64,000 nt of DNA from Acidobacteriota bacterium (GCA_003170135.1 PMZR01000140.1:4382-68381); one strand, 5' to 3'. Counted from the stretch's first letter, positions 23,561-63,593 are shown. The notes: generated by a model not told the origin, from the letters alone. Made by a program: numbers and translations.

Positions 23561-24145
23561 CTACTTGGCGAAGATGCCCTTGAGCACGCCGACCAGGTCG
23601 AGGTTCTTCTCGAAGAGGACGAGCGGAATCTTCTTCGCCTTCGAAATCGCCGTGAAGCGGCCGTCCTCGTTGCCGTCCTTGCGCACGATCATGAAATTCG
23701 CCATCGGGCAGACGGCGTCGATCGACATCTCGTCGGAGTTGTCGCCGGGCGCCGCACCCGCCGACCGCCGGCTCATGCCCTCGATGTGCGCGCCTATGAC
23801 GGTCATGCCCTGCTTGCGCGCTTCGGCGATGAGCGCCTCGACCCGCTTCAACTCATCCTCGATCGACACGCCGGCGGCGCCCATGCCCTTGAGGCTCGCC
23901 CCGGTGACGACGATGAGCGACTTGAACTGCTTCGTCGCCAGGTCCTTCGCGACGGCGTCCTCCTTGAGCGTGTATTCCACGCCGGCGCGGCGCGCCAGCA
24001 CGTTCATGGCGTTGGCGCCAGGGCTCTGGCCGCACGAGGTGATGAGCACCGGCGCCGGCGCTTTCGGCGTGGTCTGGGCGGATGCGACGGCCATCAGGCA
24101 AATGAGAGCAAGGCCGAGCGTGAAGATGCGGCTGCGGACTGTCAT
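23561..24145 (-). CDS. secreted hypothetical protein (first gene of the permease operon)
   Basis: Signal peptide MTVRSRIFTLGLALICLMAVASA. 194 aa. GGAG RBS. No motif I can name with confidence. Confidence 0.6.
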   Translation of the reverse strand: MTVRSRIFTLGLALICLMAVASAQTTPKAPAPVLITSCGQSPGANAMNVLARRAGVEYTLKEDAVAKDLATKQFKSLIVVTGASLKGMGAAGVSIEDELKRVEALIAEARKQGMTVIGAHIEGMSRRSAGAAPGDNSDEMSIDAVCPMANFMIVRKDGNEDGRFTAISKAKKIPLVLFEKNLDLVGVLKGIFAK

Positions 24146-24196
24146 GGCGTTCTCCGGGATCGGGGGCAGGGGCGTGCGGGGGCGAGAATACCATAG

Positions 24197-24267
24197 TCGT
24201 TGGTCGTTAGTTGTTGGTTGTTGGTTGTTGGTCGGGGTCGTTGGTCGTTAGTCGGGGTCGTTGGTCG
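24197..24267 (+). repeat. heptamer tandem array TCGTTGG/TTGTTGG (about 10 units, single arm)
   Basis: tcgttgg tcgttag ttgttgg ttgttgg ttgttgg tcgggg tcgttgg tcgttag tcgggg tcgttgg. Lies in the divergent region upstream of pgsB. Confidence 0.9.
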
Positions 24268-24375
24268 CCTGCCCTGAGCGAGCGCAGCGAGTCGAAGGGT
24301 TGGCCGGAGCCGCCCCCGGGCCGTCTGACGTCGGCCGGCCGCCTTCGGTGTAAGCTGCTGCAGAATCAGGGGCTC

Positions 24376-25698
24376 ATGATTCTCTTCGCCTGCCTCGTCC
24401 TGCTCGTGACGCTCGGACTTTTCGAGCGGGTGGCCGTCCGCCGGGCGCGCGGCGCGATGCCCATTCGCATCCACGTGAACGGGACCCGCGGCAAGTCCAC
24501 GGTTACGCGGTTGATTGCCGCGGCGCTGCGGGAGGCGGGCATCCCCACGGTCGCGAAGACCACGGGCACCGCCCCGCGGCTCATCCTGCCGGACGGCTCC
24601 GAGCGGCCCGTCATCCGCCGGGCACCGGCCAGCATTCGCGAGCAGGCGTGGCTCGTCGGTCGCGCCGCTCGCGCGGGCGCCCGGGCGCTGGTGGCCGAGT
24701 GCATGGCCGTCCAGCCGGACCTGCAATGGGTGAGCGAGCGCGAGATGCTGCGGGCGACGATCGGCGTCATCACCAACGTGCGCCTCGATCACACCGAGGC
24801 GATGGGCCGGACGCTCGACCAGATTGCGCAGTCGCTGGCCAATAGCGTCCCGCGCGGCGGCGTGCTGGTGACAGGCGATCGGCGCGTCGCGACGGCAGCG
24901 GCCTCGCGGTGCGCCGCGCTCGGCACGCGGCTCGTCGTCGTGGCCGCGTCGGGCGACTTCACGGGGCCAGGTCGTGAAGAAAGTGGCAAATCAAGACCTG
25001 ACCCCATCTGGGTGGAGGATGCGCGCATCGCGCTCGCGGTCACGCGCGAGCTGGGCATCGCCGATGCGATTGCCGTGCGAGGGATGCAGAAGGCCGCCGC
25101 CGACCCCGGTGCGGTGACCCGCGGGGTCGCGACAATTGGCGAGCGCCAGGTCGCGTGGATCGACGCGACGGCCGCCAATGACCCGGAGTCGCTGGACCTG
25201 CTGATAACAGGGCTGAAGCCCTGTTCCACGTCAGGGCATGTCGAACCGGACTCGAGGGATGGCCCGGCAGCCGACCATGCGGCACCAGCGGCGACGGATG
25301 TGGCACAGGACTTCAGTCCTGTGCTCACGATCTACAACCACCGGGCCGATCGATCGGATCGCCTCCGCATCTTCGCCCAGTGCAGCACGGTGTTCCGACA
25401 CTCCGGGCAGGTCGTCGTGACCGGGGATCGGCCGAGCCTGTCACTGATGACGCGCGCGAGGCAACTGTGCCCGGGCATCGACATCCGGTTCGTGCCGCGC
25501 CGCCGCCTCGCCGCGGCGACCGGCGCAATCTTGTCCGCATTCCACGTTCCACCCTCGGCGTCGGACATTCCAGATGCCGGGCCCGGCGGCGACGATCCGA
25601 TGGTCATCTTCTGCGGCAACACGCGTGGCTTCGTTCGCCCCTTTTCCGCGAACGTGGACACCGGACACCGGACTCCGGACTCCGGACAGATTCCTTGA
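24376..25698 (+). CDS. pgsB: poly-gamma-glutamate synthase PgsB/CapB
   Basis: VNGTRGKSTVTRLIAAALREAG (Mur-ligase P-loop), ECMAVQPD, TNVRLDH and NHRADRSDR match my memory of Bacillus PgsB. It contains three palindromic elements and a 3'-terminal heptamer array in frame. Confidence 0.88.
   Translation: MILFACLVLLVTLGLFERVAVRRARGAMPIRIHVNGTRGKSTVTRLIAAALREAGIPTVAKTTGTAPRLILPDGSERPVIRRAPASIREQAWLVGRAARAGARALVAECMAVQPDLQWVSEREMLRATIGVITNVRLDHTEAMGRTLDQIAQSLANSVPRGGVLVTGDRRVATAAASRCAALGTRLVVVAASGDFTGPGREESGKSRPDPIWVEDARIALAVTRELGIADAIAVRGMQKAAADPGAVTRGVATIGERQVAWIDATAANDPESLDLLITGLKPCSTSGHVEPDSRDGPAADHAAPAATDVAQDFSPVLTIYNHRADRSDRLRIFAQCSTVFRHSGQVVVTGDRPSLSLMTRARQLCPGIDIRFVPRRRLAAATGAILSAFHVPPSASDIPDAGPGGDDPMVIFCGNTRGFVRPFSANVDTGHRTPDSGQIP
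24963..25011. repeat. REP-like palindromic element, type 1, embedded in frame in pgsB
   Basis: ggggccaggtcgtgaagaaagtggcaaatcaagacctgaccccatctgg, about 5 mismatches from the intergenic copy at 12733-12781. Encodes GPGREESGKSRPDPIW. Confidence 0.85.
25207..25224. repeat. short palindrome ACAGGGC-TGAA-GCCCTGT inside pgsB
   Basis: Perfect 7-bp stem with a 4-nt loop, read directly. A variant of the type 2 element. Confidence 0.8.
25303..25324. repeat. REP-like palindrome, type 2 (GCACAGGAC-TTCA-GTCCTGTGC) inside pgsB
   Basis: Identical over 25 nt (gtggcacaggacttcagtcctgtgc) to the copy at 63569-63593. Encodes AQDFSPV. Confidence 0.9.
25656..25690 (+). repeat. heptamer tandem array GGACACC/GGACTCC (5 units) forming the last codons of pgsB
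   Basis: ggacacc ggacacc ggactcc ggactcc ggacaga. Translated as DTGHRTPDSGQ. Confidence 0.9.
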
Positions 25699-25705
25699 GG
25701 CTCCA

Positions 25706-26146
25706 ATGCTCGAAACCGCCATCGGCGTCGGCATCACCGTGAACCTGCTGCTGACCGAGGTCTTCGGCCTCGCCTCGGCGGGCCTGGTGGTTCCCGGGTA
25801 TCTCGCGCTGTATCTCTCGCACCCGTGGCGACTGGTGGCGACCACCGTCGTCGCGCTCCTGACGTGGGCGGTGGTGCGATTCGGCCTCGCTCGCCTCATC
25901 GTCCTCTACGGCCGCCGGAGGTTTGGCATCACGGTGCTCGTCGGGTTCCTGCTGAACCTGCTCGCGCTGCGCGTCCTGCGCGCGATGCCCGCCGAGCCGG
26001 TTGACCTGCGCGCCATCGGCTTCATCATTCCGGGCCTGATCGCCAACCAGGCGCTCGTCCAGGGCGTGTGGCCGACGCTCGTCCTCACCGCGCTTGCCGC
26101 CGCGATCGTACGGCTCGTGTTGTTCGCCGCGGGCGGATGGGTGTGA
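25706..26146 (+). CDS. pgsC: poly-gamma-glutamate biosynthesis protein PgsC/CapC
   Basis: 146-aa polytopic membrane protein. GLVVPGYLALY and IIPGLIAN motifs match PgsC. GAGG RBS. Confidence 0.85.
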   Translation: MLETAIGVGITVNLLLTEVFGLASAGLVVPGYLALYLSHPWRLVATTVVALLTWAVVRFGLARLIVLYGRRRFGITVLVGFLLNLLALRVLRAMPAEPVDLRAIGFIIPGLIANQALVQGVWPTLVLTALAAAIVRLVLFAAGGWV

Positions 26147-27135
26147 TGGACAACGAAGGTCCCTTCCGGCCGCGCGTCGGCCTCTGGCCCGTGCGCCTCG
26201 GCGGCCTGACGTTGGTGGCCGGCGTTGCGCTGGCGGTCGCCCTCGGCGTCTCGGCTTCGCGGCCCTCGCCCGTCGCCCGCGTGCCGCGCGAGATCGCAGA
26301 CCGGGCTCGCGGCGCGGAGATGGCGATGAAGCGGGCCGCGCAGGTGATCGGGCAGGCGCGCGAGGCCGAAGCCGTCGCGAGCGAAGCGCCTGGCGGCGGG
26401 GCGATGTCGAGCCTCGTCGGTGCCGAGCTGACGCCGATTACCTCGACGTTCGGCAATCTCGAGGCGAAACGCGTGGCGACCAACCCCGCGTGGGCCAGCG
26501 TGCTGGTGCTTCGCCTGTACGAGGCGGGTCTGCGCCGCGGCGACGTCGCTGTCGCCGGCCTCTCCGGCTCGTTCCCCGGCCTCAACGCCGCGCTCGTCAT
26601 CGCGTGCCAGTCGATCGGCGTGGACGTGTTCGCGATCTCTTCGGTGACCGCCTCGAGTTGGGGCGCCAACCAGCCGGGCTTCACCTGGCCGGAGATGGAG
26701 ATCCGCCTTGTCCGGGCCGGCGTGATCCGCCAGGCGTCAATTGCCGTGACCGCGGGCGGCGCCGGCGATCGCGCCCTCGACCTGGAACCCGATGGACGCG
26801 CGCTGGCCCGGCAGATCGCGAAGGCGGCGAGCGTCGCCATGCGCGTGCCGCTGCTCGAGCCCAGCGACTTCGAAGACGCGGTTGCCCTGCGGTTGCTCGC
26901 CTACAAGCGGGCGTCGGGCACGCGTCCGATTCAGCTCTACGTGAACGTCGGCGGCACGGAGGCGAGCCTCGGCCGGTCGGCCGCGGTGCTTCACCTGAAG
27001 AACGGGTTCCTGCCCGGCGTGCCCTTCGATTTCTCCCGCGACCGCGGCGTGATGGCGCGCTTTGCCGAGCGCGGCGTGCGCGTGCTGACCTTGCTCAACG
27101 TGCGCGACCTGGCCCTGCGCTGGGGCATCCTCTAG
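26146..27135 (+). CDS. poly-gamma-glutamate system protein (non-PgsA third component)
   Basis: The ATG overlaps the pgsC stop (gTGATGg). N-terminal TM anchor. I infer family membership (the PGA system protein found beside pgsBC outside Bacillus) from position and length, without alignment. Confidence 0.6.
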   Translation: MDNEGPFRPRVGLWPVRLGGLTLVAGVALAVALGVSASRPSPVARVPREIADRARGAEMAMKRAAQVIGQAREAEAVASEAPGGGAMSSLVGAELTPITSTFGNLEAKRVATNPAWASVLVLRLYEAGLRRGDVAVAGLSGSFPGLNAALVIACQSIGVDVFAISSVTASSWGANQPGFTWPEMEIRLVRAGVIRQASIAVTAGGAGDRALDLEPDGRALARQIAKAASVAMRVPLLEPSDFEDAVALRLLAYKRASGTRPIQLYVNVGGTEASLGRSAAVLHLKNGFLPGVPFDFSRDRGVMARFAERGVRVLTLLNVRDLALRWGIL

Positions 27136-28184: not shown

Positions 28185-31174
28185 ATGTCTCTCCGCCTGC
28201 CCCTCGCTCTCGGCCTCCTCGTCCTGGCGGCCTCGGCCGCGCGCGCCCAGGCGGTCAGGATCGACTCGGAGACGCTCGGCGGCCTCGAGGCGCGATCGAT
28301 CGGTCCCGCCGCGATGGGCGGCCGCGTCACGGCGGTTGACGGTGTCGCCGGCGATCGGGTGACCATCTACGCGGGCGCGGCCGGCGGCGGCCTGTGGAAG
28401 TCGGCCGACGGCGCCGTGCAGTTCTCGCCGATCTTCGACAAGTACAACCAGTCGATCGGCGCCATCGCGATCGATCCGCACGCGCCGGCCACCCTCTGGG
28501 TCGGCACCGGCGAGCCGTGGACGCGCAACAGCGTGTCGGCAGGCGATGGCGTCTACAAGTCCACCGATGCGGGCGACACCTGGGTCAGAGTGGGCTTCGA
28601 GGACTCCGAGCGCATCGCGCGCATTGCCGTCCACCCGAACGACGGGAACACGGTCTTTGTCTGCGCGCTGGGCCACTTGTTCGACGATCACCAGGAACGT
28701 GGCGTGTACAGGACGCGCGACGGCGGGAAGTCGTGGGACCGGGTCCTCTATGTGGCCCCGGACACCGGCTGCGCCGACCTCGCGATCGATCCGCAGGATC
28801 CCGCCATTCTCTATGCCGCCATGTGGCAGGTGCGCCGTCGTCCCGACTTCTTCACGTCGGGCGGCCCTCGCAGCGCGTTCTTCAAGTCGATCGACGGCGG
28901 CAGCCACTGGCTGCCGATGAGGAACGGCCTCCCGGAGGGTGAGCTGGGGCGCATCGCGATCGCGATCGCACCATCGAAGCCGTCGACCGTGTACGCCACG
29001 GTCGAGGCGAAGACGAGCGGGCTCTATCGGTCGGACGATCGTGGCCAGAGCTGGGTCGTCGTGAACACCACGTCCACGGTCTCCCAGCGGCCGTTCTATT
29101 TTTCGCGACTGGTGGTCGATCCCGGCGATCCCAATCGTCTCTACAAGATGGGCACGATCGCCGCCTACAGTGACGATGGCGGCCGGACGTTCAATCAACT
29201 CGGAGTGTCCGGGCGCGGCCTCAGCTACCACGCCGACGTCCACGACATCTGGATCAATCCGAAGCACCCGGCGGATCTCGTGATCGGCACCGACGGCGGC
29301 GTGTACGTGTCGCATGACCGAGGGCATGCCTGGCGCTTCGTCGGGACGCTGCCCATCTCGCAGTTCTATCACGTCAGCTACGACATGGCGTGGCCCTACA
29401 ACGTGTACGGCGGGCTGCAGGACAACAGCAGCTGGTACGGACCGTCGCGCCGCTCGGGCGGCATCGGCAACCGGCACTGGCAGTCGCTGACCGGCGGCGA
29501 CGGGTTCTGGGCGTTTCCCGATCCGACCGATCCGGACCTGGTCTACGCGGAGTACCAGGGCGGCAACCTGTTCCGGGTCCGCCGCTCGACGCTCGAGACC
29601 AAGGACATCAGACCCGCGCCGGGCGAGAGCGATCCGAAGTTCCGCTTCAACTGGAACACGCCGATTCACCTCAGTCCCACGAACCGGGGCGTCATCTACT
29701 ACGGCGCGCAGGTGCTCTTCCGATCGAAAGACAAAGGCGAGTCGTGGCAGCAGATCTCCGGGGACCTGACGACCAACGATCCCGCCAATCTGCGGCAGGA
29801 CGCGTCGGGCGGGCTGACGCCGGACAATTCGTCCGCCGAGAACTACTGCACGATCTTCGCGATCGCCGAATCGCCCAGGAACGCGAACCTCATCTGGGTT
29901 GGCACCGACGATGGCAACCTGCAGGTGACCCGCGATGGCGGCGTCACGTGGACGAACGTGGTCGCCAACGTGCCGGGGCTGCAAAGGCGCACGTGGGTCT
30001 CGAGCGTCGAGCCCGGGCATTTCGACGAGGCGGTCGCCTACGTCACGTTCGACGGCCACATGACCGGCGACATGACGACCTACGTGTACCGGACCGCGGA
30101 TTTCGGGAAGACGTGGCAGCGGCTTGGGGTTGCGACCCCGGCAGGGCCGAAGCCCCGCGCCACGGCTGATCGTGCCGCCGCGGCGGACGCTCCGGTAGGG
30201 CAAGGCTTCAGCCTTGCCGGGGATCTGCGTGGCTACGCGCACGTCGTCAAGGAGGATTCAGTCAATCCGGCCCTGCTGTTCGTCGGCACGGAGTCGGGGC
30301 TGTTCGTGAGCGTGGACGGAGGCCGCCAGTGGGCGCAGTTCACCTCGGGGCTGCCCGGCGTCGCGGTGCGCGATCTGGCGATTCATCCCCGCGAGCACGA
30401 CCTCATCGTCGCGACCCATGGGCGCGCTACTACCTGAAGAAACGCCACGTATTTGGTGACTTGCGCGTCGAGGTGTACGATGCCAGCGGCGGCTTGGTGA
30501 CCACGCTGGCCGGTGGCAAGCGCCGCGGCCTCAACCGCGTCGAGTGGCCGATGCGTTCGCGCGCCCCGAGGATGGCCCCCGGCATCGGGATCATCCCGAG
30601 CGTGTTCTCGCTTCTCGGGCCTCGAGTCCTCGAGGGCACTTACGCGGTGAAGCTCGTGCGGGGAACCGAGATGCTGGCCTCGGAAATCCTCCTGGTGCCC
30701 GATCCCCGATCGCCGCACACGGCCGCCGACCGCGTGGCTCAACGCGACACGGCGCTGAAGCTCTACGGGCTGGTCGAGCGTCTTGCGTCGCTCGTGTCGA
30801 GCCTGGATGGAGTGCGGAATCAGACGCGCGCGAGGCTTGGCACACTACCGGCCGGCGACACGCTGGCGACCCGCCTCGGCGTGTTCGCGGCGGCGCTCGA
30901 CGACGAGCGGGCCGCGCTGGTCTCGGTGAGGCAGGGCGAAGGGATCTCGGCCGACGAGAAGCTGCGCGAGGAGCTGGGTCTGCTCTACGGCAACGTCAAC
31001 GGCTACGAGGGCCGTCCCACCGAGTCGCAGGTCCGTCGCATGGCGGTTCTCGCGAAACAGCTGGACGAGGCGATTGCGCGCTTCGAGCGCCTGGTCGCGG
31101 CCGATCTGCCGGCGTTGAACGCGGATCTGGCGGCGCGGAAGATGGATGGGATAACGGTAAAGGGCGGTCGATAG
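28185..31174 (+). pseudogene. BNR/Asp-box (sortilin/VPS10-type) repeat glycosidase-like gene, disrupted near 30425
   Basis: The N-terminal ORF 28185-30437 ends ...DLIVATHGRATT*. The C-terminal part continues in another frame from about 30427 (ARYYLKKRHVFGDLRVEVYDASG...) to 31174. Multiple SxDxGxTW-type repeats are present (STDAGDTW, RDGGKSW, SIDGGSHW, SDDRGQSW, DDGGRTF, TRDGGVTW). Confidence 0.6.
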
Positions 31175-31466: not shown

Positions 31467-33272
31467 ATGAACGAGAGCCTGCAGGACAAGCGCGACGTTC
31501 GCGCACAGTGGTCTTTCGACACCCGTCCGATCCTCGGCCGCTTCCACCTGTGGCTGGAGGACGTGGACGTGCACTGGGTGCGGGGCAAGCCGGCCAAGGA
31601 ATTCACGTATCAGTTGTCGTTCATGGACGGGCGCACCGAACGGCTGCTGGCGATGACCGCGGCGGTCACCGCGCTGGGCACGAAGCTGTTCGGCCGGTTC
31701 GGCGCCGGTGCCACGCTCGACAAGGCCGGGCTCAACCAGGTGAAGAAGGACGCCGACGCGATTTCGGCCTACGCCATGAGCGAGAGCCTGTGGTACTTGT
31801 CGCGGCAGCTGCCCGAGAACCACGCCATCATGGTGTGCCTGGGCGAGGGGTTGATGCCGAAGGCGGGCGAGACGCCCGAGATGGGCGCGAACCCGCAGCT
31901 CGGCTTCGGGCGCGTCTACGCGCGGCCGGAAGTCGCGCGCTGGCTCGACCAGCACGTCGTCCGACTGCTGAACGATCCCGAGTACGGATGGGACATGTTC
32001 TACCGCGACCTCCAGGCATCGGGCATCACGGTCTGGGGCGCGGCGATCGACACGCTCGAGAACACGTCGCGTTTCGCGAAGGGCTGCATCGACGGGCCGA
32101 TGACGGTCCTGCACCTGTTCAACCAGCCGGTGCACATCGCGCGGCCGTACGAGGGCTACATCGGCACCATGCTCCTGCCGCGCGAGGTCGTCCGCGTCGC
32201 GGCCGACCACGCCATCCTCGTCTCGGTGCGCACGCCGCGCGCGCTCGTGATGAAGGCCATCCAGCTGACCTATCCCGGCATCAAGCCGCACCACGTCCAC
32301 GTCTGGACGCTCGGCGGCAAGAGCCGGCTGCCGCGCATCGGCAACCTCTGGAAGCAGTGGCAGGATCTCGGCGCGCACATCGTCGAAGAGGGGTGGACGC
32401 TTCCGACCGGCCTGAAGGCGTTCACCGAGTCCGGCACGTATGCGCCCACCTACGCGGTGCGCGCGTGGCAGGACACGGCGGGTGAGACGCACCTGTTCTT
32501 CATCGACGGCTACGCGGCGTCGGCCGAAGCGGTGCAGGCGGCGAGTCTGGCGCCCGTGCTCGGTCTGGACGCGTCGCTGGCGGTGTTCACGTCGAAGTTC
32601 AAGCTGCCCTACGAACGCGAGCAGGACATCATGCCGCTCGATCCCGACGGCCCGGAGTTTGCCGCGAAGCTGGCGGACGTCATCGGCGAGCCGGTGAATG
32701 CGGCAACACGCGACGACTACCGGCGCATGATCATGGAGGGACGCTCGGCGGGCATCGACCTGACGAAGCGCACGCTCACCGCCGACGACTTCTTCCAGGA
32801 GCGCAAGTGGGAAGTGCTGGCGCTCACCGGCTACATGGGACCGGATCCGTATTCGGGGATCGAGGGCGTCGAAGAGCTCGCGCCAGGCGTGTACCGGTCG
32901 ACCGTGCGGCTCGCCTCGGCGCGGGGCGACAAGCGGATCGCGTTCACGCTGCGGCTGATGGAGACGTTCGACCAGAGCCGGCTCGTGTTCAGCCCCCTGC
33001 TCAACCGCTTCCTGGCCGGCGAGAACTACGAAACCCGGCCGGTGAAGATCTCCGACTCGGGCCGCATCCGCAACGAGCTGCAGACGCTGTGCGCGGAGGC
33101 GCTGGAGTTCTACGACGCGGACCACATCCGCGTCCACTTCGACAAGATCCCGCCCGAGGTGATCTCTCTCGAGCATCAGAAGAAGCTGCTCGAGGTGCTG
33201 CGCTGGTACAAATCGCGTCACCCGATCTGGTTTTCCTGGCTCGAGATTGCCGAAGCGCGCGTGCCCGCGTAG
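31467..33272 (+). CDS. hypothetical 601-aa protein, possibly a divergent GlpX-like (class II FBPase fold) domain plus C-terminal extension
   Basis: By eye, AAIDTLENTSRFAKG, VWTLGGKSRLPRI and FIDGYAASAEAVQAASLAPVLG loosely parallel GlpX AVDPIDGT, ILDRPRH and GGAPEGV..AAAL.CLGG. Remote and unverified. Confidence 0.55.
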   Translation: MNESLQDKRDVRAQWSFDTRPILGRFHLWLEDVDVHWVRGKPAKEFTYQLSFMDGRTERLLAMTAAVTALGTKLFGRFGAGATLDKAGLNQVKKDADAISAYAMSESLWYLSRQLPENHAIMVCLGEGLMPKAGETPEMGANPQLGFGRVYARPEVARWLDQHVVRLLNDPEYGWDMFYRDLQASGITVWGAAIDTLENTSRFAKGCIDGPMTVLHLFNQPVHIARPYEGYIGTMLLPREVVRVAADHAILVSVRTPRALVMKAIQLTYPGIKPHHVHVWTLGGKSRLPRIGNLWKQWQDLGAHIVEEGWTLPTGLKAFTESGTYAPTYAVRAWQDTAGETHLFFIDGYAASAEAVQAASLAPVLGLDASLAVFTSKFKLPYEREQDIMPLDPDGPEFAAKLADVIGEPVNAATRDDYRRMIMEGRSAGIDLTKRTLTADDFFQERKWEVLALTGYMGPDPYSGIEGVEELAPGVYRSTVRLASARGDKRIAFTLRLMETFDQSRLVFSPLLNRFLAGENYETRPVKISDSGRIRNELQTLCAEALEFYDADHIRVHFDKIPPEVISLEHQKKLLEVLRWYKSRHPIWFSWLEIAEARVPA

Positions 33273-33280
33273 GGGCGCGC

Positions 33281-35872
33281 CTACTCGCTGCGCAGCGCCC
33301 GGAGCGGCGCCACCTTCATCGCGCGCCGGGCCGGGAAGTAACAGGCCAGCAGCATCGCGGCGGCGAGCAGCAGCGGCGCGACGACGAAGGTGAGCGGATC
33401 GAGCGCGCTCACCTGGTACAGCAGGCTGCGCACGCCCTGCCCGACCGCCACCGCGAGGACCAGGCCGACGCCGATGCCGGCGGCCGTCAGCACGAGACCT
33501 TCGCGCAGCACCAGCCACAGCACGTCGCGCGGCGTGGCCCCGAGCGACATGCGGATGCCAATTTCGCGCGTGCGCCGCGACACCAGGTATGCCTTCACGC
33601 CGTACACGCCGACCAGCGCAAGGAACACGGCCGCCAGGCCGATCGCGCTGAACAGGTTCGCGCCGGTCTTCACCATCCACAGGCTCATGCTGGCGTCGCG
33701 ATGTGCGGCCATGGTCCGCAACGACAGCACGGGCAGCCGGTCATCGAGCAGCCGCAGGTCCTGCCGGACGAGGCGCAGCACCGCGGGCTCGCCGCCCGGC
33801 TGCCTGACCCGCAGGTGCACGAACATGTTCGCCTGGTAGTGCTGGCCGAACGCGACGTACACCTGGGGCTGCACATCCTCCTGGAGCAGGCTGTGGCGGA
33901 TCGGCCGTGCGATGCCGATGATCTCGAGCGGCGCGGCCTGCGTCCCCGGGCTGGTCCCACGCGCATCGGAGTCGACGATGCGGATGAATTGTCCGAGCGG
34001 ATCCGCCTTCGGGAACAGCCGCCGCGCGAGCGTCTCGTCGATGACCACGCGCGGTGCGGCCGTCGCCCTCAGCTCCTCGTCCGCGTTGAACCCGCGCCCG
34101 CGCAGGATCCTGATGCCGAGCGTTTCGAAATAGCCGGCGCCGACGATATAGTAGTTGACGCCAATCGCGTTGCCGCGATCGCGGGGCGGAGCGCCATTGC
34201 CCATCGTGAACGAGGCGTCGTCTGGTCCCGCAGGCGCCTGGTTCCCTTCGGTCCCGACCTTCTCCACCCGGCGCCCCATCGTCATGTCGCCGAAGGGGAC
34301 GACCGAGGCGAGGCTTGCCGCCTCGACGCCGGGCAGCGCGCGCATCCGCTCCAGCAGGTGCCGGTAGAGTTCACGGCCTTTCGCTTCGTCGTACCCGGCC
34401 ATGCTCGGATCGACGTTCGCGACGATCGATTGCGCGAGGCTGAACCCCGGCTCGGCCGAGGCGGCCTTGCCCGCCGCCCGGATGAACAGGCCTGCCGCCG
34501 TCAGCAACCCGAGCGACAGCGCCACCTGCCCGACCACCAGGGCGTTGCGCAGGCTGATGCGGCGCCAGCGCCTGCGGCCGGTCTCGCCGCCCTGTTCCTT
34601 CAACTCGGGCACGACGTCGGTGCGCGACAGCTTCCACGCCGGGCCGAGGCCGAAGACGAGCGTGCTGAGGGCGCTGAAGCCGAGCGTCGCCAGGAGCACG
34701 CGAAGATCGGGTGCCGGATCGAGCGCCAGCGCGAACATGCCCTGCATCGCGGGCGCCATCGACGCCACGAGCAGCCGCGTCGCCCAGAACGCGATGAGCA
34801 GGCCGCCGGCGCCCCCGGCGAGCGACAGGAGGAAGCCCTCCACCAGCAGCTGCCGGACGATCGGGCCGCGGCCGCTGCCGAGCGCCAGCCGAATCGCGAT
34901 TTCCTTGCGGCGGCTCGTCCCGCGCGCCAGCAGCATGTTGGCGAGGTTCAGGCACGCGATGGCCAGCACGATCGCCGTCATCGCCATGAGCAGGATCGAG
35001 AGGCTGGCCGTCTGCGAATCGTCCTGCGGGTTGCTCGAGACGCCGAAGCGCGTCAGCGCGTGCGCCAGCAGCACCTGGTTCTTGTTCTCGGCAGGGTACT
35101 CCCGCTGCAACTCGGTCGAGAGCCCGGCCAGCAGCGATTCGGTCTTCGCCACGTCGACGCCCGGCTTCAGGCGCCCGAAGAGCATCAGGCTGTGGTTCAG
35201 CCGGTCGCCGAGCAGCGGGTGCTCCGCCGTCCGGAACATGTCGTTGACGACCATCTCGTAGGTGCCGGTCGGCAGCCAGAATTCGGGCGAAATGATCGAG
35301 GCGGCCGCCGTGAAGCCCTGCGGTGCCACGCCGACAACGGTGAACGGCCGGGAGTTGAGGCGCACCGGCGTGCCGACGATGTGCGGATCGAACCCGTGGG
35401 CCTTCCAGTGTTCGTATGACACGACGACGACGGGAATGCCCGCGCCGGGTTTCTCCTCGTCGAGGCTGAAGTCGCGGCCCACCTCCAGGTGCCCGGCGAA
35501 GGTGGCGAAGTAGTTGGCGGTGACGATGGCCGTGAAGACGCGGCGCGTCTGGTCGGCGTCCTTGTACCCGACGAGCGCCAGCGTCATGCCAGCCAGGTCG
35601 GAGAACACGGGGTTGCGCGAGCGGATGTCCTGGTAGTCCGGGTAGGAGAAGTCGCGGTAGGTGCCCGGGTGCGCGCGGTCGCGGCTGTAAAGGCCGACGA
35701 CCTGTGTCGCGCCGCGCTCGGCGGGCGAGGGGCGAATCAGCGCCGCGTTGACCAGGCTGAACACGGCCGTGTTGGCGCCGATCCCGAGCGCCAGCACGAC
35801 AATGGCGACGACGCTGAAGCCCGGCGTCCTCAACAGGCTGCGGACCGCGAACCGGATGTCCTTGATGAGCAT
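33281..35872 (-). CDS. ADOP-family duplicated FtsX/MacB-type ABC transporter permease
   Basis: The N-terminus MLIKDIRFAVRSLLRTPGFSVVAIVVLALGIGANTAVFS is characteristic. Two MacB_PCD/FtsX modules in 863 aa. Confidence 0.88.
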   Translation of the reverse strand: MLIKDIRFAVRSLLRTPGFSVVAIVVLALGIGANTAVFSLVNAALIRPSPAERGATQVVGLYSRDRAHPGTYRDFSYPDYQDIRSRNPVFSDLAGMTLALVGYKDADQTRRVFTAIVTANYFATFAGHLEVGRDFSLDEEKPGAGIPVVVVSYEHWKAHGFDPHIVGTPVRLNSRPFTVVGVAPQGFTAAASIISPEFWLPTGTYEMVVNDMFRTAEHPLLGDRLNHSLMLFGRLKPGVDVAKTESLLAGLSTELQREYPAENKNQVLLAHALTRFGVSSNPQDDSQTASLSILLMAMTAIVLAIACLNLANMLLARGTSRRKEIAIRLALGSGRGPIVRQLLVEGFLLSLAGGAGGLLIAFWATRLLVASMAPAMQGMFALALDPAPDLRVLLATLGFSALSTLVFGLGPAWKLSRTDVVPELKEQGGETGRRRWRRISLRNALVVGQVALSLGLLTAAGLFIRAAGKAASAEPGFSLAQSIVANVDPSMAGYDEAKGRELYRHLLERMRALPGVEAASLASVVPFGDMTMGRRVEKVGTEGNQAPAGPDDASFTMGNGAPPRDRGNAIGVNYYIVGAGYFETLGIRILRGRGFNADEELRATAAPRVVIDETLARRLFPKADPLGQFIRIVDSDARGTSPGTQAAPLEIIGIARPIRHSLLQEDVQPQVYVAFGQHYQANMFVHLRVRQPGGEPAVLRLVRQDLRLLDDRLPVLSLRTMAAHRDASMSLWMVKTGANLFSAIGLAAVFLALVGVYGVKAYLVSRRTREIGIRMSLGATPRDVLWLVLREGLVLTAAGIGVGLVLAVAVGQGVRSLLYQVSALDPLTFVVAPLLLAAAMLLACYFPARRAMKVAPLRALRSE

Positions 35873-63530: not shown

Positions 63531-63571
63531 CTCGCGTTGTCCTCACATCCGGCTGAAACCGGCCTCCCGTG

Positions 63572-63593
63572 GCACAGGACTTCAGTCCTGTGC
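63572..63593. repeat. REP-like palindrome, type 2 (GCACAGGAC-TTCA-GTCCTGTGC); its loop carries the actB stop codon
   Basis: Identical to the copy at 25303-25324. The minus-strand TGA at 63582-63584 lies in the loop. Confidence 0.9.

What the first reader, a model, noticed from the sequence alone, without database searches (positions are those of the whole stretch)
24963..25324. pgsB carries three palindromic repeat elements in frame, plus a heptamer array as its last codons
Three hairpin-forming repeats lie inside the pgsB reading frame without breaking it:
- Type 1 element, 24963-25011, encoding GPGREESGKSRPDPIW.
- ACAGGGC-TGAA-GCCCTGT, 25207-25224, encoding TGLKPC.
- GCACAGGAC-TTCA-GTCCTGTGC, 25303-25324, encoding AQDFSPV.

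In addition, five GGACNCC units (25656-25690) encode the C-terminal DTGHRTPDSGQ.

From my memory of Bacillus PgsB, the stretch between the conserved AAND and NxRADRxDR motifs is roughly 25 residues longer here, and that excess is where the two small palindromes sit.

The loop of each palindrome (TTCA/TGAA) would give a TGA in one frame or orientation. The copies in pgsB are in frames that avoid it. The identical copy at 63572 uses that TGA as the actB stop.

This looks like repeat-element insertion tolerated in surface loops of an essential-domain enzyme, or alternatively a decaying gene.
Basis: partly seen in the sequence, partly recalled or inferred. Interest (0 to 1): 0.6.

Follow-up and report, generated by a model that had tools for sequence, protein, structure and literature searches.

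The report
Palindromic repeats translated inside pgsB
An intact poly-gamma-glutamate synthase gene of an uncultured, probably acidobacterial genome carries three copies of the genome's own hairpin repeats and a 7-base repeat tail, all read in frame as floppy loops; this kind of event is already known, and the gene is not decaying.

Summary
pgsB (24376-25698, 440 aa) passes the PgsB model, is predicted to adopt a Mur-ligase fold, and keeps every invariant residue of its relatives.

It contains:
- One 44-nt "Type 1" hairpin. This family has about 51 copies, and two inverted copies flank each side of a RAYT-like tyrosine transposase gene elsewhere in the genome.
- Two small REP-type hairpins with a GTGG/CCAC tag (76 tagged copies). 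They form an inverted, REPIN-like doublet.
- A GGACNCC heptamer array just before the stop codon.

All of these fall where this protein is longer than 14 family-level orthologues. In an AlphaFold model the excess segments are low-confidence coil, and third-position GC falls from about 0.9 to about 0.6 there.

The gene is not decaying. dN/dS against relatives is 0.27-0.29, the same as among the relatives themselves.

Not everything is recent. The first small hairpin and the heptamer tail are shared at DNA level with metagenomic relatives of 62-74% protein identity. The second small hairpin belongs to a subfamily seen only in this genome.

The behaviour is genome-wide: 32 of 76 small hairpins lie inside called genes, including CysRS, and 10 supply a gene's stop codon.

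In-frame REPs are already documented (Rickettsia RPEs; Di Nocera 2013), so this is a new member of a known kind.

The parts
24376..25698 (+). pgsB coding sequence (440 aa, P0001); stop TGA at 25696-25698; pgsC starts at 25706
   Evidence: TIGR04012 PgsB scores 286 bits against a cut-off of 222.7. PF08245 also matches. The AlphaFold model has pLDDT 86 and Foldseek finds FPGS/MurC/MurE at E about 1e-12.
24963..25006 (+). Type 1 hairpin element (REP family of the RAYT-like gene on contig C76), read in frame as G197-P210 (GPGREESGKSRPDP)
   Evidence: It is 91-97% identical over 39-45 nt to the closest other copies, and it is the only copy deep inside a called gene. It folds at -19.8 kcal/mol, z -3.1. 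It is absent from orthologues. pLDDT is about 66 in coil 189-210.
25206..25229 (+). Small REP 1, TGAA orientation: AACAGGGC-TGAA-GCCCTGTT plus CCAC tag; read as (I)TGLKPCST
   Evidence: It belongs to the 76-copy tagged family, in the CAGGGC subfamily that relatives also carry. An orthologous copy with the same non-REP 3' flank is in L042, and a degenerate one is in L043.
25230..25299 (+). 70-nt spacer of the doublet, read as SGHVEPDSRDGPAADHAAPAATD
   Evidence: GC3 is 0.60-0.67 here and pLDDT is below 50 for residues 282-307. The spacer differs in sequence and length in the relatives.
25300..25324 (+). Small REP 2, inverted orientation: GTGG tag plus GCACAGGAC-TTCA-GTCCTGTGC; read as VAQDFSPV
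   Evidence: It belongs to the CAGGAC subfamily, found only in this genome among the 41 searched. It is identical to the copy at 63573-63592. With REP 1 it folds into a long hairpin of -60.6 kcal/mol, z -3.6.
25540..25590 (+). Lineage-specific extra loop (about aa 389-405, HVPPSASDIPDAGPGG); not assignable to a repeat family
   Evidence: It is absent from L041, L042 and the family-level orthologues. pLDDT is 61-71 in coil. There is no clear k-mer spike.
25656..25690 (+). GGACNCC heptamer array (2 GGACACC, 2 GGACTCC, 1 degenerate unit), encoding (V)DTGHRTPDSGQ just before the stop
   Evidence: TRF reports 4.7 copies at 92% match. The 13-mer count reaches 188 in the genome. The same array, with different unit numbers, sits before the conserved TGAGG in L041 and L042. 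pLDDT is below 50 for residues 431-440.
25706..27135 (+). pgsC (25706-26146) and a poly-gamma-glutamate system protein (26143-27135), the rest of the operon
   Evidence: TIGR04011 scores 112 bits and TIGR04332 scores 249.9 bits. Gene order is the same in L041 and L043.
63569..63592 (-). Reference copy of small REP 2 whose loop TGA (63582-63584) is the stop codon of an ActB-like gene
   Evidence: fused QrcB-like and QrcC-like domains.

Best explanation
pgsB is a working poly-gamma-glutamate synthase gene that has accumulated the genome's own non-autonomous repeat DNA at sites coding for permissive loops.

Two palindromic families are involved.
- The 44-nt Type 1 hairpin is the repeat that flanks a RAYT-like HUH tyrosine transposase gene. 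It is presumably moved by that enzyme as a single-stranded hairpin.
- The roughly 24-nt hairpin with a GTGG head occurs singly and as inverted, REPIN-like doublets.

Insertions survive only where they keep the frame, avoid the TGA that one frame of the loop would create, and land in loops between secondary-structure elements. There they are translated as disordered linkers.

The heptamer array belongs to a separate, slippage-prone class that fills spacers in this genome. The pgsB frame runs through it to a conserved TGAGG, whose GAGG, 8 nt before the pgsC ATG, could be that gene's ribosome-binding site.

The repeat content has built up over a long time. REP 1 and the heptamer tail predate the split from relatives of 62-74% identity. 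REP 2 belongs to a subfamily private to this genome, so it is inferred to be a later addition; the intact Type 1 element is absent from the three relatives whose DNA was read, but its age is unresolved.

Shown here: family membership, absence from orthologues, loop location, purifying selection, and the transposase association for Type 1.

Inferred: the mobilisation mechanism, actual translation of the inserts, and neutrality of the inserts.
For: - Identity of the gene: PgsB model above cut-off, and pgsC plus TIGR04332 downstream.
- Repeat families: Type 1 has about 51 copies, of which the pgsB copy is the only one deep in a gene. The small REP has 76 tagged copies with covarying stems (CA/TG, CG/CG, AG/CT) and a CCAC tag.
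- Transposase link: a Y1_Tnp gene at C76:33133-34098 has two Type 1 copies on each side in inverted orientation. It scores 41.9 bits on PF01797 and 75.2 bits on NF047646 REP_Tyr_transpos over the full profile.
- Inserts against orthologues: 14 family-level PgsB proteins of 362-389 aa lack all four excess segments.
- Composition: GC3 is 0.60-0.67 at the inserts and 0.87-0.97 elsewhere.
- Structure: pLDDT 86 and pTM 0.86. The only low-confidence stretches are 191-210, 282-307, 391-410 and 431-440, all coil. The fold matches FPGS/Mur ligases.
- Selection: dN/dS 0.27-0.29 against L041, L042 and L043, compared with 0.24-0.30 among them. All invariant columns are kept.
- Age and turnover: REP 1 is shared with L042 including a non-REP flank, is degenerate in L043, and is missing from L041, which is 94% identical to L042. 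The heptamer array is at the same place in L041 and L042. The CAGGAC subfamily occurs only in this genome.
- Generality: in-frame small REPs lie in CysRS, an ABC-2 permease, a PLP decarboxylase, LysE and a MutS-V protein. The 12-aa CysRS insert is absent from 7 orthologues.
- Not an assembly artefact: the exact 440-aa protein is on 6 contigs from NCBI, JGI and ENA.
- Precedent: intragenic REPs and RPEs are described in PMC3733652. The GT(A/G)G head and REP-flanked RAYT genes are described in PMC2817692.
Against: - No transposase was found for the small REP family. The assembly holds only two Y1 genes, and small REPs flank neither.
- The RAYT model score is just below its curated cut-off (75.2 against 80).
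- There is no relative closer than 74% protein identity, so no empty site at near-identical sequence is available and the age of the Type 1 insertion is unresolved. RPPDP in the relatives resembles the element's right arm.
- REP 1 keeps a perfect stem although synonymous divergence from the relatives that share it is about 0.63. Pure neutrality does not predict that.
- No expression, protein or activity data exist.
- dN/dS of about 0.28 is only moderate constraint.
Confidence: 0.8

Rival explanations
1. The gene is decaying. The repeat insertions, the loss of the C-terminal helix seen in family-level orthologues and the repeat-coded tail mark a PgsB that is already inactive or about to be lost.
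For: - pgsB has the lowest coding score per codon in its neighbourhood: 0.18 (78.6/441) against about 0.34-0.60 for the nearby genes listed.
- The C-terminal LDVPRLLEEAA helix of family-level orthologues is replaced by FVRPFSAN plus repeat-coded residues.
- A gene three positions downstream (28185-31174) is split.
Against: - There is no stop or frameshift in 440 codons.
- All invariant residues of 112 homologues are kept.
- dN/dS is 0.27-0.29, equal to that among relatives.
- The altered C-terminus and heptamer tail are shared by a whole clade (P0003-P0016) whose members remain under purifying selection.
- pgsC and the third gene are intact, with high GC3.
- The identical protein was recovered on six contigs.
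Confidence: 0.07
2. The hairpins are kept because they do something in the mRNA or the protein. They might pause ribosomes between domains, protect the transcript, or tune the PgsB/PgsC ratio. On this reading the elements are domesticated, not merely tolerated.
For: - REP 1 sits at the same codon position in several relatives, and its stem is perfect here despite dS of about 0.63.
- The doublet can form a -60.6 kcal/mol structure.
- The heptamer array always precedes the conserved TGAGG stop, whose GAGG may serve as the pgsC ribosome-binding site.
- From my own knowledge, not checked here: E. coli REPs close to stop codons have been reported to reduce expression through ribosome stalling (Liang, Rudd and Deutscher 2015).
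Against: - L041 lacks REP 1 although it is 94% identical to L042, which has it.
- Stems are broken in L042 and L043, and spacers differ completely.
- The same elements sit in unrelated genes and in spacers.
- The peptides are predicted to be disordered.
- No known RNA family matches.
Confidence: 0.1
3. The resemblance is coincidental, or an assembly artefact. The segments would then be ordinary PgsB sequence or chimeric joins at short repeats.
For: GLKPC recurs in several PgsB relatives, which could look like a protein motif.
Against: - The DNA of those relatives encodes the same tagged hairpin.
- The segments are missing from all 14 family-level orthologues.
- Nucleotide identity to intergenic copies is 90-100%.
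- The repeats are shorter than a sequencing read.
- The identical protein was assembled on six contigs from three sources.
Confidence: 0.02

Closest known systems
REP / REPIN elements with RAYT tyrosine transposases (REPtrons): Nunvar 2010 PMC2817692; Bertels and Rainey 2011 PMC3116915; Di Nocera 2013 PMC3733652
   Same: - Short GC-rich palindromes with a GT(A/G)G head (here GTGG).
- Covarying stems.
- Tens of dispersed copies, mostly after genes.
- Frequent inverted doublets.
- A Y1 HUH transposase gene flanked by inverted copies (the Type 1 family).
- Di Nocera et al. already list REPs inside coding genes, including uvrA and tRNA synthetase genes, with dimers that encode 20-30 residues.
   Different: - The host is probably Acidobacteriota, not Proteobacteria.
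- Copy numbers are modest (about 51 and 76).
- The GTGG-headed family has no identified RAYT in this assembly.
- Type 1 lacks a clear GTAG head.
- An unusually high share of the small family (32 of 76) lies inside called genes, with a strong reading-frame bias.
Rickettsia palindromic elements (RPEs; Ogata et al. 2000, as summarised in PMC3733652)
   Same: Palindromic repeats are inserted in frame in many unrelated protein genes, including essential ones. They are tolerated because they fall in loops, and they are retained across related species.
   Different: - There is no sequence relationship.
- RPE-1 elements are longer, over 100 bp by my recollection; that figure was not checked here.
- The host here is a large, free-living, high-GC genome and not a reduced intracellular one.
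Heptameric intergenic tandem repeats of Xanthomonas (GGGAATC) and Nostoc (GGGGAYT): Rehm et al. 2015, PMC4692102
   Same: Period-7 arrays are spread over the genome, mostly non-coding, with variable unit number, and are often placed within 50 bp of stop codons.
   Different: - The units here are many different heptamers (GGACNCC, GTCGTTG, GTGCGAN and others), not one G-tract motif.
- 133 of 805 arrays run into the 3' ends of genes, and the pgsB frame reads through one.
PgsB/CapB amide ligase of the PgsBCA poly-gamma-glutamate synthetase (TIGR04012)
   Same: It shares the Mur-ligase fold, the GTRGKS P-loop, an N-terminal membrane helix and a pgsC gene immediately downstream.
   Different: - It has about 50-75 extra residues in four loops.
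- The C-terminal helix is replaced.
- The third gene is TIGR04332, not PgsA/CapA.

Membership tests
PgsB (TIGR04012, poly-gamma-glutamate synthase) | Score above the curated equivalog cut-off | tested here: met
   286 bits against 222.7. The match covers profile positions 1-271 of 380 and stops at the REP doublet.
PgsB (TIGR04012, poly-gamma-glutamate synthase) | Mur-ligase/FPGS fold with an ATP-binding P-loop | tested here: met
   GTRGKS is at residues 36-41. Foldseek finds FPGS, MurC and MurE at E 5e-13 to 1e-11.
PgsB (TIGR04012, poly-gamma-glutamate synthase) | Operon partner PgsC directly downstream | tested here: met
   TIGR04011 scores 112 bits at 25706-26146.
PgsB (TIGR04012, poly-gamma-glutamate synthase) | Makes poly-gamma-glutamate | not testable with these tools
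   This needs expression and a polymer assay.
REP with RAYT (REPtron): Type 1 element | Y1 HUH transposase gene flanked by inverted copies of the repeat | tested here: met
   At C76:33133-34098(-), copies lie at 33022-33065 and 33093-33136 on one side and at 34092-34134 and 34151-34194 on the other, in opposite orientation.
REP with RAYT (REPtron): Type 1 element | The transposase belongs to the RAYT family and is not an ordinary IS200/IS605 TnpA | tested here: inconclusive
   NF047646 REP_Tyr_transpos gives E 4.6e-21 and 75.2 bits over profile positions 4-146 of 146, but the curated cut-off is 80. PF01797 scores 41.9 bits.
REP with RAYT (REPtron): Type 1 element | GT(A/G)G head 5' of the palindrome | tested here: not met
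   Copies start (A/C)GGGG(C/T)CAGG. Only some begin with GTGG.
REP with RAYT (REPtron): small hairpin | GT(A/G)G head plus a short imperfect palindrome with compensatory stem variation | tested here: met
   The unit is GTGG-NN-CAGGRC-TTCA-GYCCTG-NN. Outer pairs covary as CA/TG, CG/CG and AG/CT, and the inner pair as A/T or G/C.
REP with RAYT (REPtron): small hairpin | Cognate RAYT flanked by this repeat | tested here: not met
   The 141-contig assembly holds only two Y1 genes, and small REPs flank neither. One could lie in unassembled sequence.
REP with RAYT (REPtron): small hairpin | Inverted doublets (REPIN/BIME-like) | tested here: met
   Nine tail-to-tail pairs have spacers of 8-84 nt. The pgsB pair folds as one long hairpin.
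Rickettsia palindromic elements | In-frame insertion into conserved protein genes, absent from orthologues | tested here: met
   pgsB and CysRS. This is a likeness in behaviour only; no sequence relationship was tested.

The most novel reading that the evidence does not exclude
The small REP family may be coupled to the reading frame. Among copies associated with genes, the core is almost always in the phase where CAG is a codon.
- In one orientation this gives a Q(D/G)FSP(A/V) loop: 22 of 32 intragenic copies, and 10 of 11 independent single insertions.
- In the other orientation the loop TGA becomes the gene's stop codon: 10 genes, including the ActB-like gene.

Neither the phase distribution of GTGG target sites nor avoidance of stop codons fully explains this. 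It suggests either phase-specific insertion or strong selection for the one codon-compatible frame.

If so, this REP lineage habitually remodels the loops and C-termini of proteins. In addition, changes in heptamer unit number (-1 or +2 units) would fuse PgsB to PgsC in frame.
Probability: 0.25. Interest if true: 0.55.

Novelty: new member of a known kind. Interest (0 to 1): 0.33.

Why it matters
- It shows that REP-type hairpins and heptamer arrays are written into proteins well outside Proteobacteria and Rickettsia, in a large high-GC soil or sediment genome. The affected genes include CysRS, an essential enzyme.
- For annotation, such inserts depress HMM coverage and coding scores. The PgsB model match stops at the doublet. 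They can therefore make intact genes look broken.
- For evolution, the pgsB loop gives a dated series. It holds an old shared REP, a lineage-private REP, and gain and loss between relatives that are 94% identical. That series could be used to measure REP turnover inside coding DNA.
- For protein engineering, the four sites mark permissive loops of PgsB.

Tried and rejected
- Rfam scan of 24100-25800 found only a chance-level hit (ASdes, 20 bits against a gathering score of 40).
No read-level test for presence/absence polymorphism or transcription could be made.
- Members of the 90% cluster (P0002, P0122, P0123) are identical fragments, so no allele without inserts was found.
- No protein closer than 67% local identity was found among 5.8 billion sequences, so no near-identical empty site exists.
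- PDB sequence search found no solved PgsB, only FPGS.
- I tested whether the frame bias of intragenic REPs follows from the codon phase of GTGG in coding DNA. Phase 0 holds 65% of sense-strand GTGG, about 41% of all six classes. That is not enough to give 10 of 11 singles in one class, and it does not explain the stop-in-loop cases.
- P0022, an apparent PgsB-PgsC fusion, lacks the AANDPES motif and looks frameshifted, so I did not use it as evidence.
- Possible remnants of Type 1 in relatives (RPPDP in L041 and L042; GGGCCAGGTCG in L043) are in inconsistent phases and were left unresolved.
- My first gene caller missed pgsB because of long spurious N-terminal extensions, and I replaced it.

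Full report
**The gene.** The window lies on contig C128 of a 5.8-Mb, 67.5% GC assembly of 141 contigs. The frame 24376-25698 encodes a 440-aa protein, P0001.
- It scores 286 bits on TIGR04012 PgsB, against a cut-off of 222.7.
- It is followed by pgsC (TIGR04011, 112 bits) and a poly-gamma-glutamate system protein (TIGR04332, 250 bits).
- Named relatives in the protein database are labelled Acidobacteriota or Vicinamibacterales. The taxon of this genome is therefore an inference.

All three palindromes and the heptamer array are at the stated coordinates and in the stated frames.
- None of the three patterns is expected by chance. No match occurred in 100 shuffles for any of them.
- Each hairpin folds better than all 200 of its shuffles.

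**What the elements are: Type 1.** The Type 1 element (24963-25006) belongs to a family of about 51 copies with consensus GGGGYCAGGTCGTGAA-loop-CAAGACCTGACCCCA.
- A Y1 HUH transposase gene at C76:33133-34098 has two copies of this element on each side, in opposite orientation. That is the arrangement which defines RAYT genes (PMC2817692).
- The protein matches PF01797 at 41.9 bits. It matches the NCBIfam REP-associated tyrosine transposase model over its whole length at 75.2 bits, just under the cut-off of 80.

**What the elements are: the small palindromes.** Each has an 8-bp stem with covarying outer pairs, a TGAA loop and a CCAC tail. Read on the other strand this is the GT(A/G)G head typical of REPs (PMC2817692).
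- There are 76 tagged copies.
- In pgsB the two copies (25206-25229 and 25300-25324) are inverted with tails inward and 70 nt apart. Nine such tail-to-tail doublets exist in the genome.
- The pgsB pair can fold as one long hairpin of -60.6 kcal/mol, z -3.6, like a REPIN (PMC3116915).

**What the elements are: the heptamer array.** It is one of 805 period-7 arrays in the genome, and 133 of them overlap or abut gene 3' ends.

**They are inserts, and they sit in loops.**
- Fourteen family-level PgsB orthologues (362-389 aa, 52-60% identity) lack four segments: about residues 197-212, 280-318 and 389-405, and the tail.
- Third-position GC falls to 0.60-0.67 over the repeat-derived stretches, against 0.87-0.97 elsewhere in the gene.
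- An AlphaFold model built on 112 homologues is confident (pLDDT 86, pTM 0.86). Its only weak stretches are 191-210, 282-307, 391-410 and 431-440. All are coil between conserved strands and helices.
- The fold matches FPGS, MurC and MurE.

**The gene is not decaying.**
- Every invariant column of the 18- and 112-sequence alignments is kept.
- dN/dS against three syntenic metagenomic relatives is 0.27-0.29, the same as among those relatives (0.24-0.30). dS is 0.63 to the nearest relative.
- The identical protein is on six contigs from three archives.

**Age and turnover.** DNA of the relatives changes the picture from a recent hit to a long-lived, changing repeat patch.
- REP 1 is present at the same codon in L042, together with the same non-REP flank TCAGGG, but with a broken stem.
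- REP 1 is degenerate in L043, which also has a decayed inverted partner.
- REP 1 is absent from L041, although L041 is 94% identical to L042. Both L041 and L042 carry another copy, SPAGLKPC.
- REP 2 belongs to the CAGGAC subfamily, which occurs only in this genome among the 41 searched. The CAGGGC subfamily of REP 1 is spread through the family (81 copies in G001) and beyond it.
- The intact Type 1 element is absent from all three relatives whose DNA was read. Whether RPPDP in those relatives is a remnant of its right arm is unresolved.
- Type 1 itself is patchy. It is rare in the same family but has 70 copies in G029, which belongs to another family of the order.
- The GGACNCC array sits before a conserved TGAGG in L041 and L042, with different unit counts. 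The TGAGG holds the stop, and its GAGG may be the ribosome-binding site of pgsC.
- Other clade members end in tails coded by other heptamers, for example PTTNDQ.

**The behaviour is genome-wide.**
- With my own codon-statistics gene caller (4700 genes, 85% coding), 32 of 76 small REPs lie inside genes and 10 have the loop TGA as the stop codon.
- Pfam confirms real domains on both sides of the insert in CysRS, an ABC-2 permease and LysE. In a PLP decarboxylase and a MutS-V protein the domain match ends before the insert.
- The 12-aa CysRS insert is missing from seven orthologues.
- Di Nocera et al. (PMC3733652) already describe intragenic REPs, often as dimers encoding 20-30 residues, in uvrA and tRNA synthetase genes. 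They relate them to Rickettsia RPEs.

**An unexplained frame bias.**
- 22 of the 32 intragenic copies are read as Q(D/G)FSP(A/V). By my count of independent events, 10 of 11 single insertions are.
- The stop-in-loop copies are in the same CAG phase.
- The phase distribution of GTGG in coding DNA (65% of sense-strand sites in phase 0) and codon quality both point the right way but do not fully account for it. The favoured frame has the best codon log-odds.

**Verdict.** This is a new example of a documented phenomenon, with a useful comparative series and two side observations worth a systematic test: the frame bias, and stop codons supplied by the hairpin loop.

Noticed in passing
window 63569-63592; genome C12:34292, C35:5957 and 26110, C42:71585, C48:12180, C56:81810, C64:14666, C66:11277, C112:97509: Ten genes end with the TGA in the loop of a small REP (...CAG GRC TGA), including the ActB-like gene in this window. 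That is far more than random placement after genes would give.
   Followed up: partly
genome-wide (list): Intragenic small REPs are read almost only in one of the five open frames, as Q(D/G)FSP(A/V). Doublets give GLK(S/P)C ... QDFSP. Neither the phase of GTGG sites nor codon quality fully explains this.
   Followed up: partly
genome C108:49546-50994: Cysteinyl-tRNA synthetase carries a 12-aa REP-coded insert (…TPAEQDFSPA…) between the catalytic and DALR domains. Seven orthologues lack it.
   Followed up: yes
genome C74:3485-4207 (-): A second Y1_Tnp gene (35% identical to the C76 one) is flanked by inverted 28-nt repeats, CGTGAGAAAAGGYGCCWGACCCCATTAC. These are not small REPs or Type 1 copies.
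   Followed up: partly
window 28185-31174: The Sortilin/BNR-like gene is split into two frames (28185-30437 and 30461-31174). About 60 residues are missing and the frame shifts relative to the 1066-aa orthologue in L041. It is a broken gene or an assembly error. It also holds a degenerate REP doublet at about 30142-30217 (…AGPKPRAT…VGQGFSLA…).
   Followed up: partly
window 25656-25706: Removing one heptamer unit, or adding two, would put pgsB in frame with pgsC and give a 587- or 594-aa fusion. Adding one or removing two extends the tail by 10-17 residues. Only 2+2 perfect units are present, so slippage is probably rare.
   Followed up: partly
genome-wide: 63 period-7 arrays, many GTCCGGA-like, lie deep inside called genes. 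So heptamer arrays too may be read in frame in many proteins. This was not checked against orthologues.
   Followed up: no
genome C74:4800-10139: A 1779-aa frame consists of two UvrA-like halves joined across a REP doublet (aa about 863-900) with no stop. This recalls the REP-bearing uvrA genes of Di Nocera 2013. It may be a true fusion or read-through of a spacer.
   Followed up: no
genome C1:4571-5461 and C14:1-1617 (contig ends): A protein with tandem repeats whose units contain REP cores (…VEQDLSPAADVEQDFSPA…). REP-derived DNA has apparently been amplified as a coding repeat. The contigs break inside it.
   Followed up: no
window 26143-27135: The third gene of the operon is a TIGR04332 'poly-gamma-glutamate system protein' with no Pfam hit, not PgsA/CapA. 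The arrangement is conserved in L041 and L043.
   Followed up: no
relatives G029 and G001: Type 1 is abundant (70 copies) in a genome of a different family of the same order but rare in closer relatives. The small REP has 81 copies in G001. These are patchy, lineage-specific expansions.
   Followed up: no
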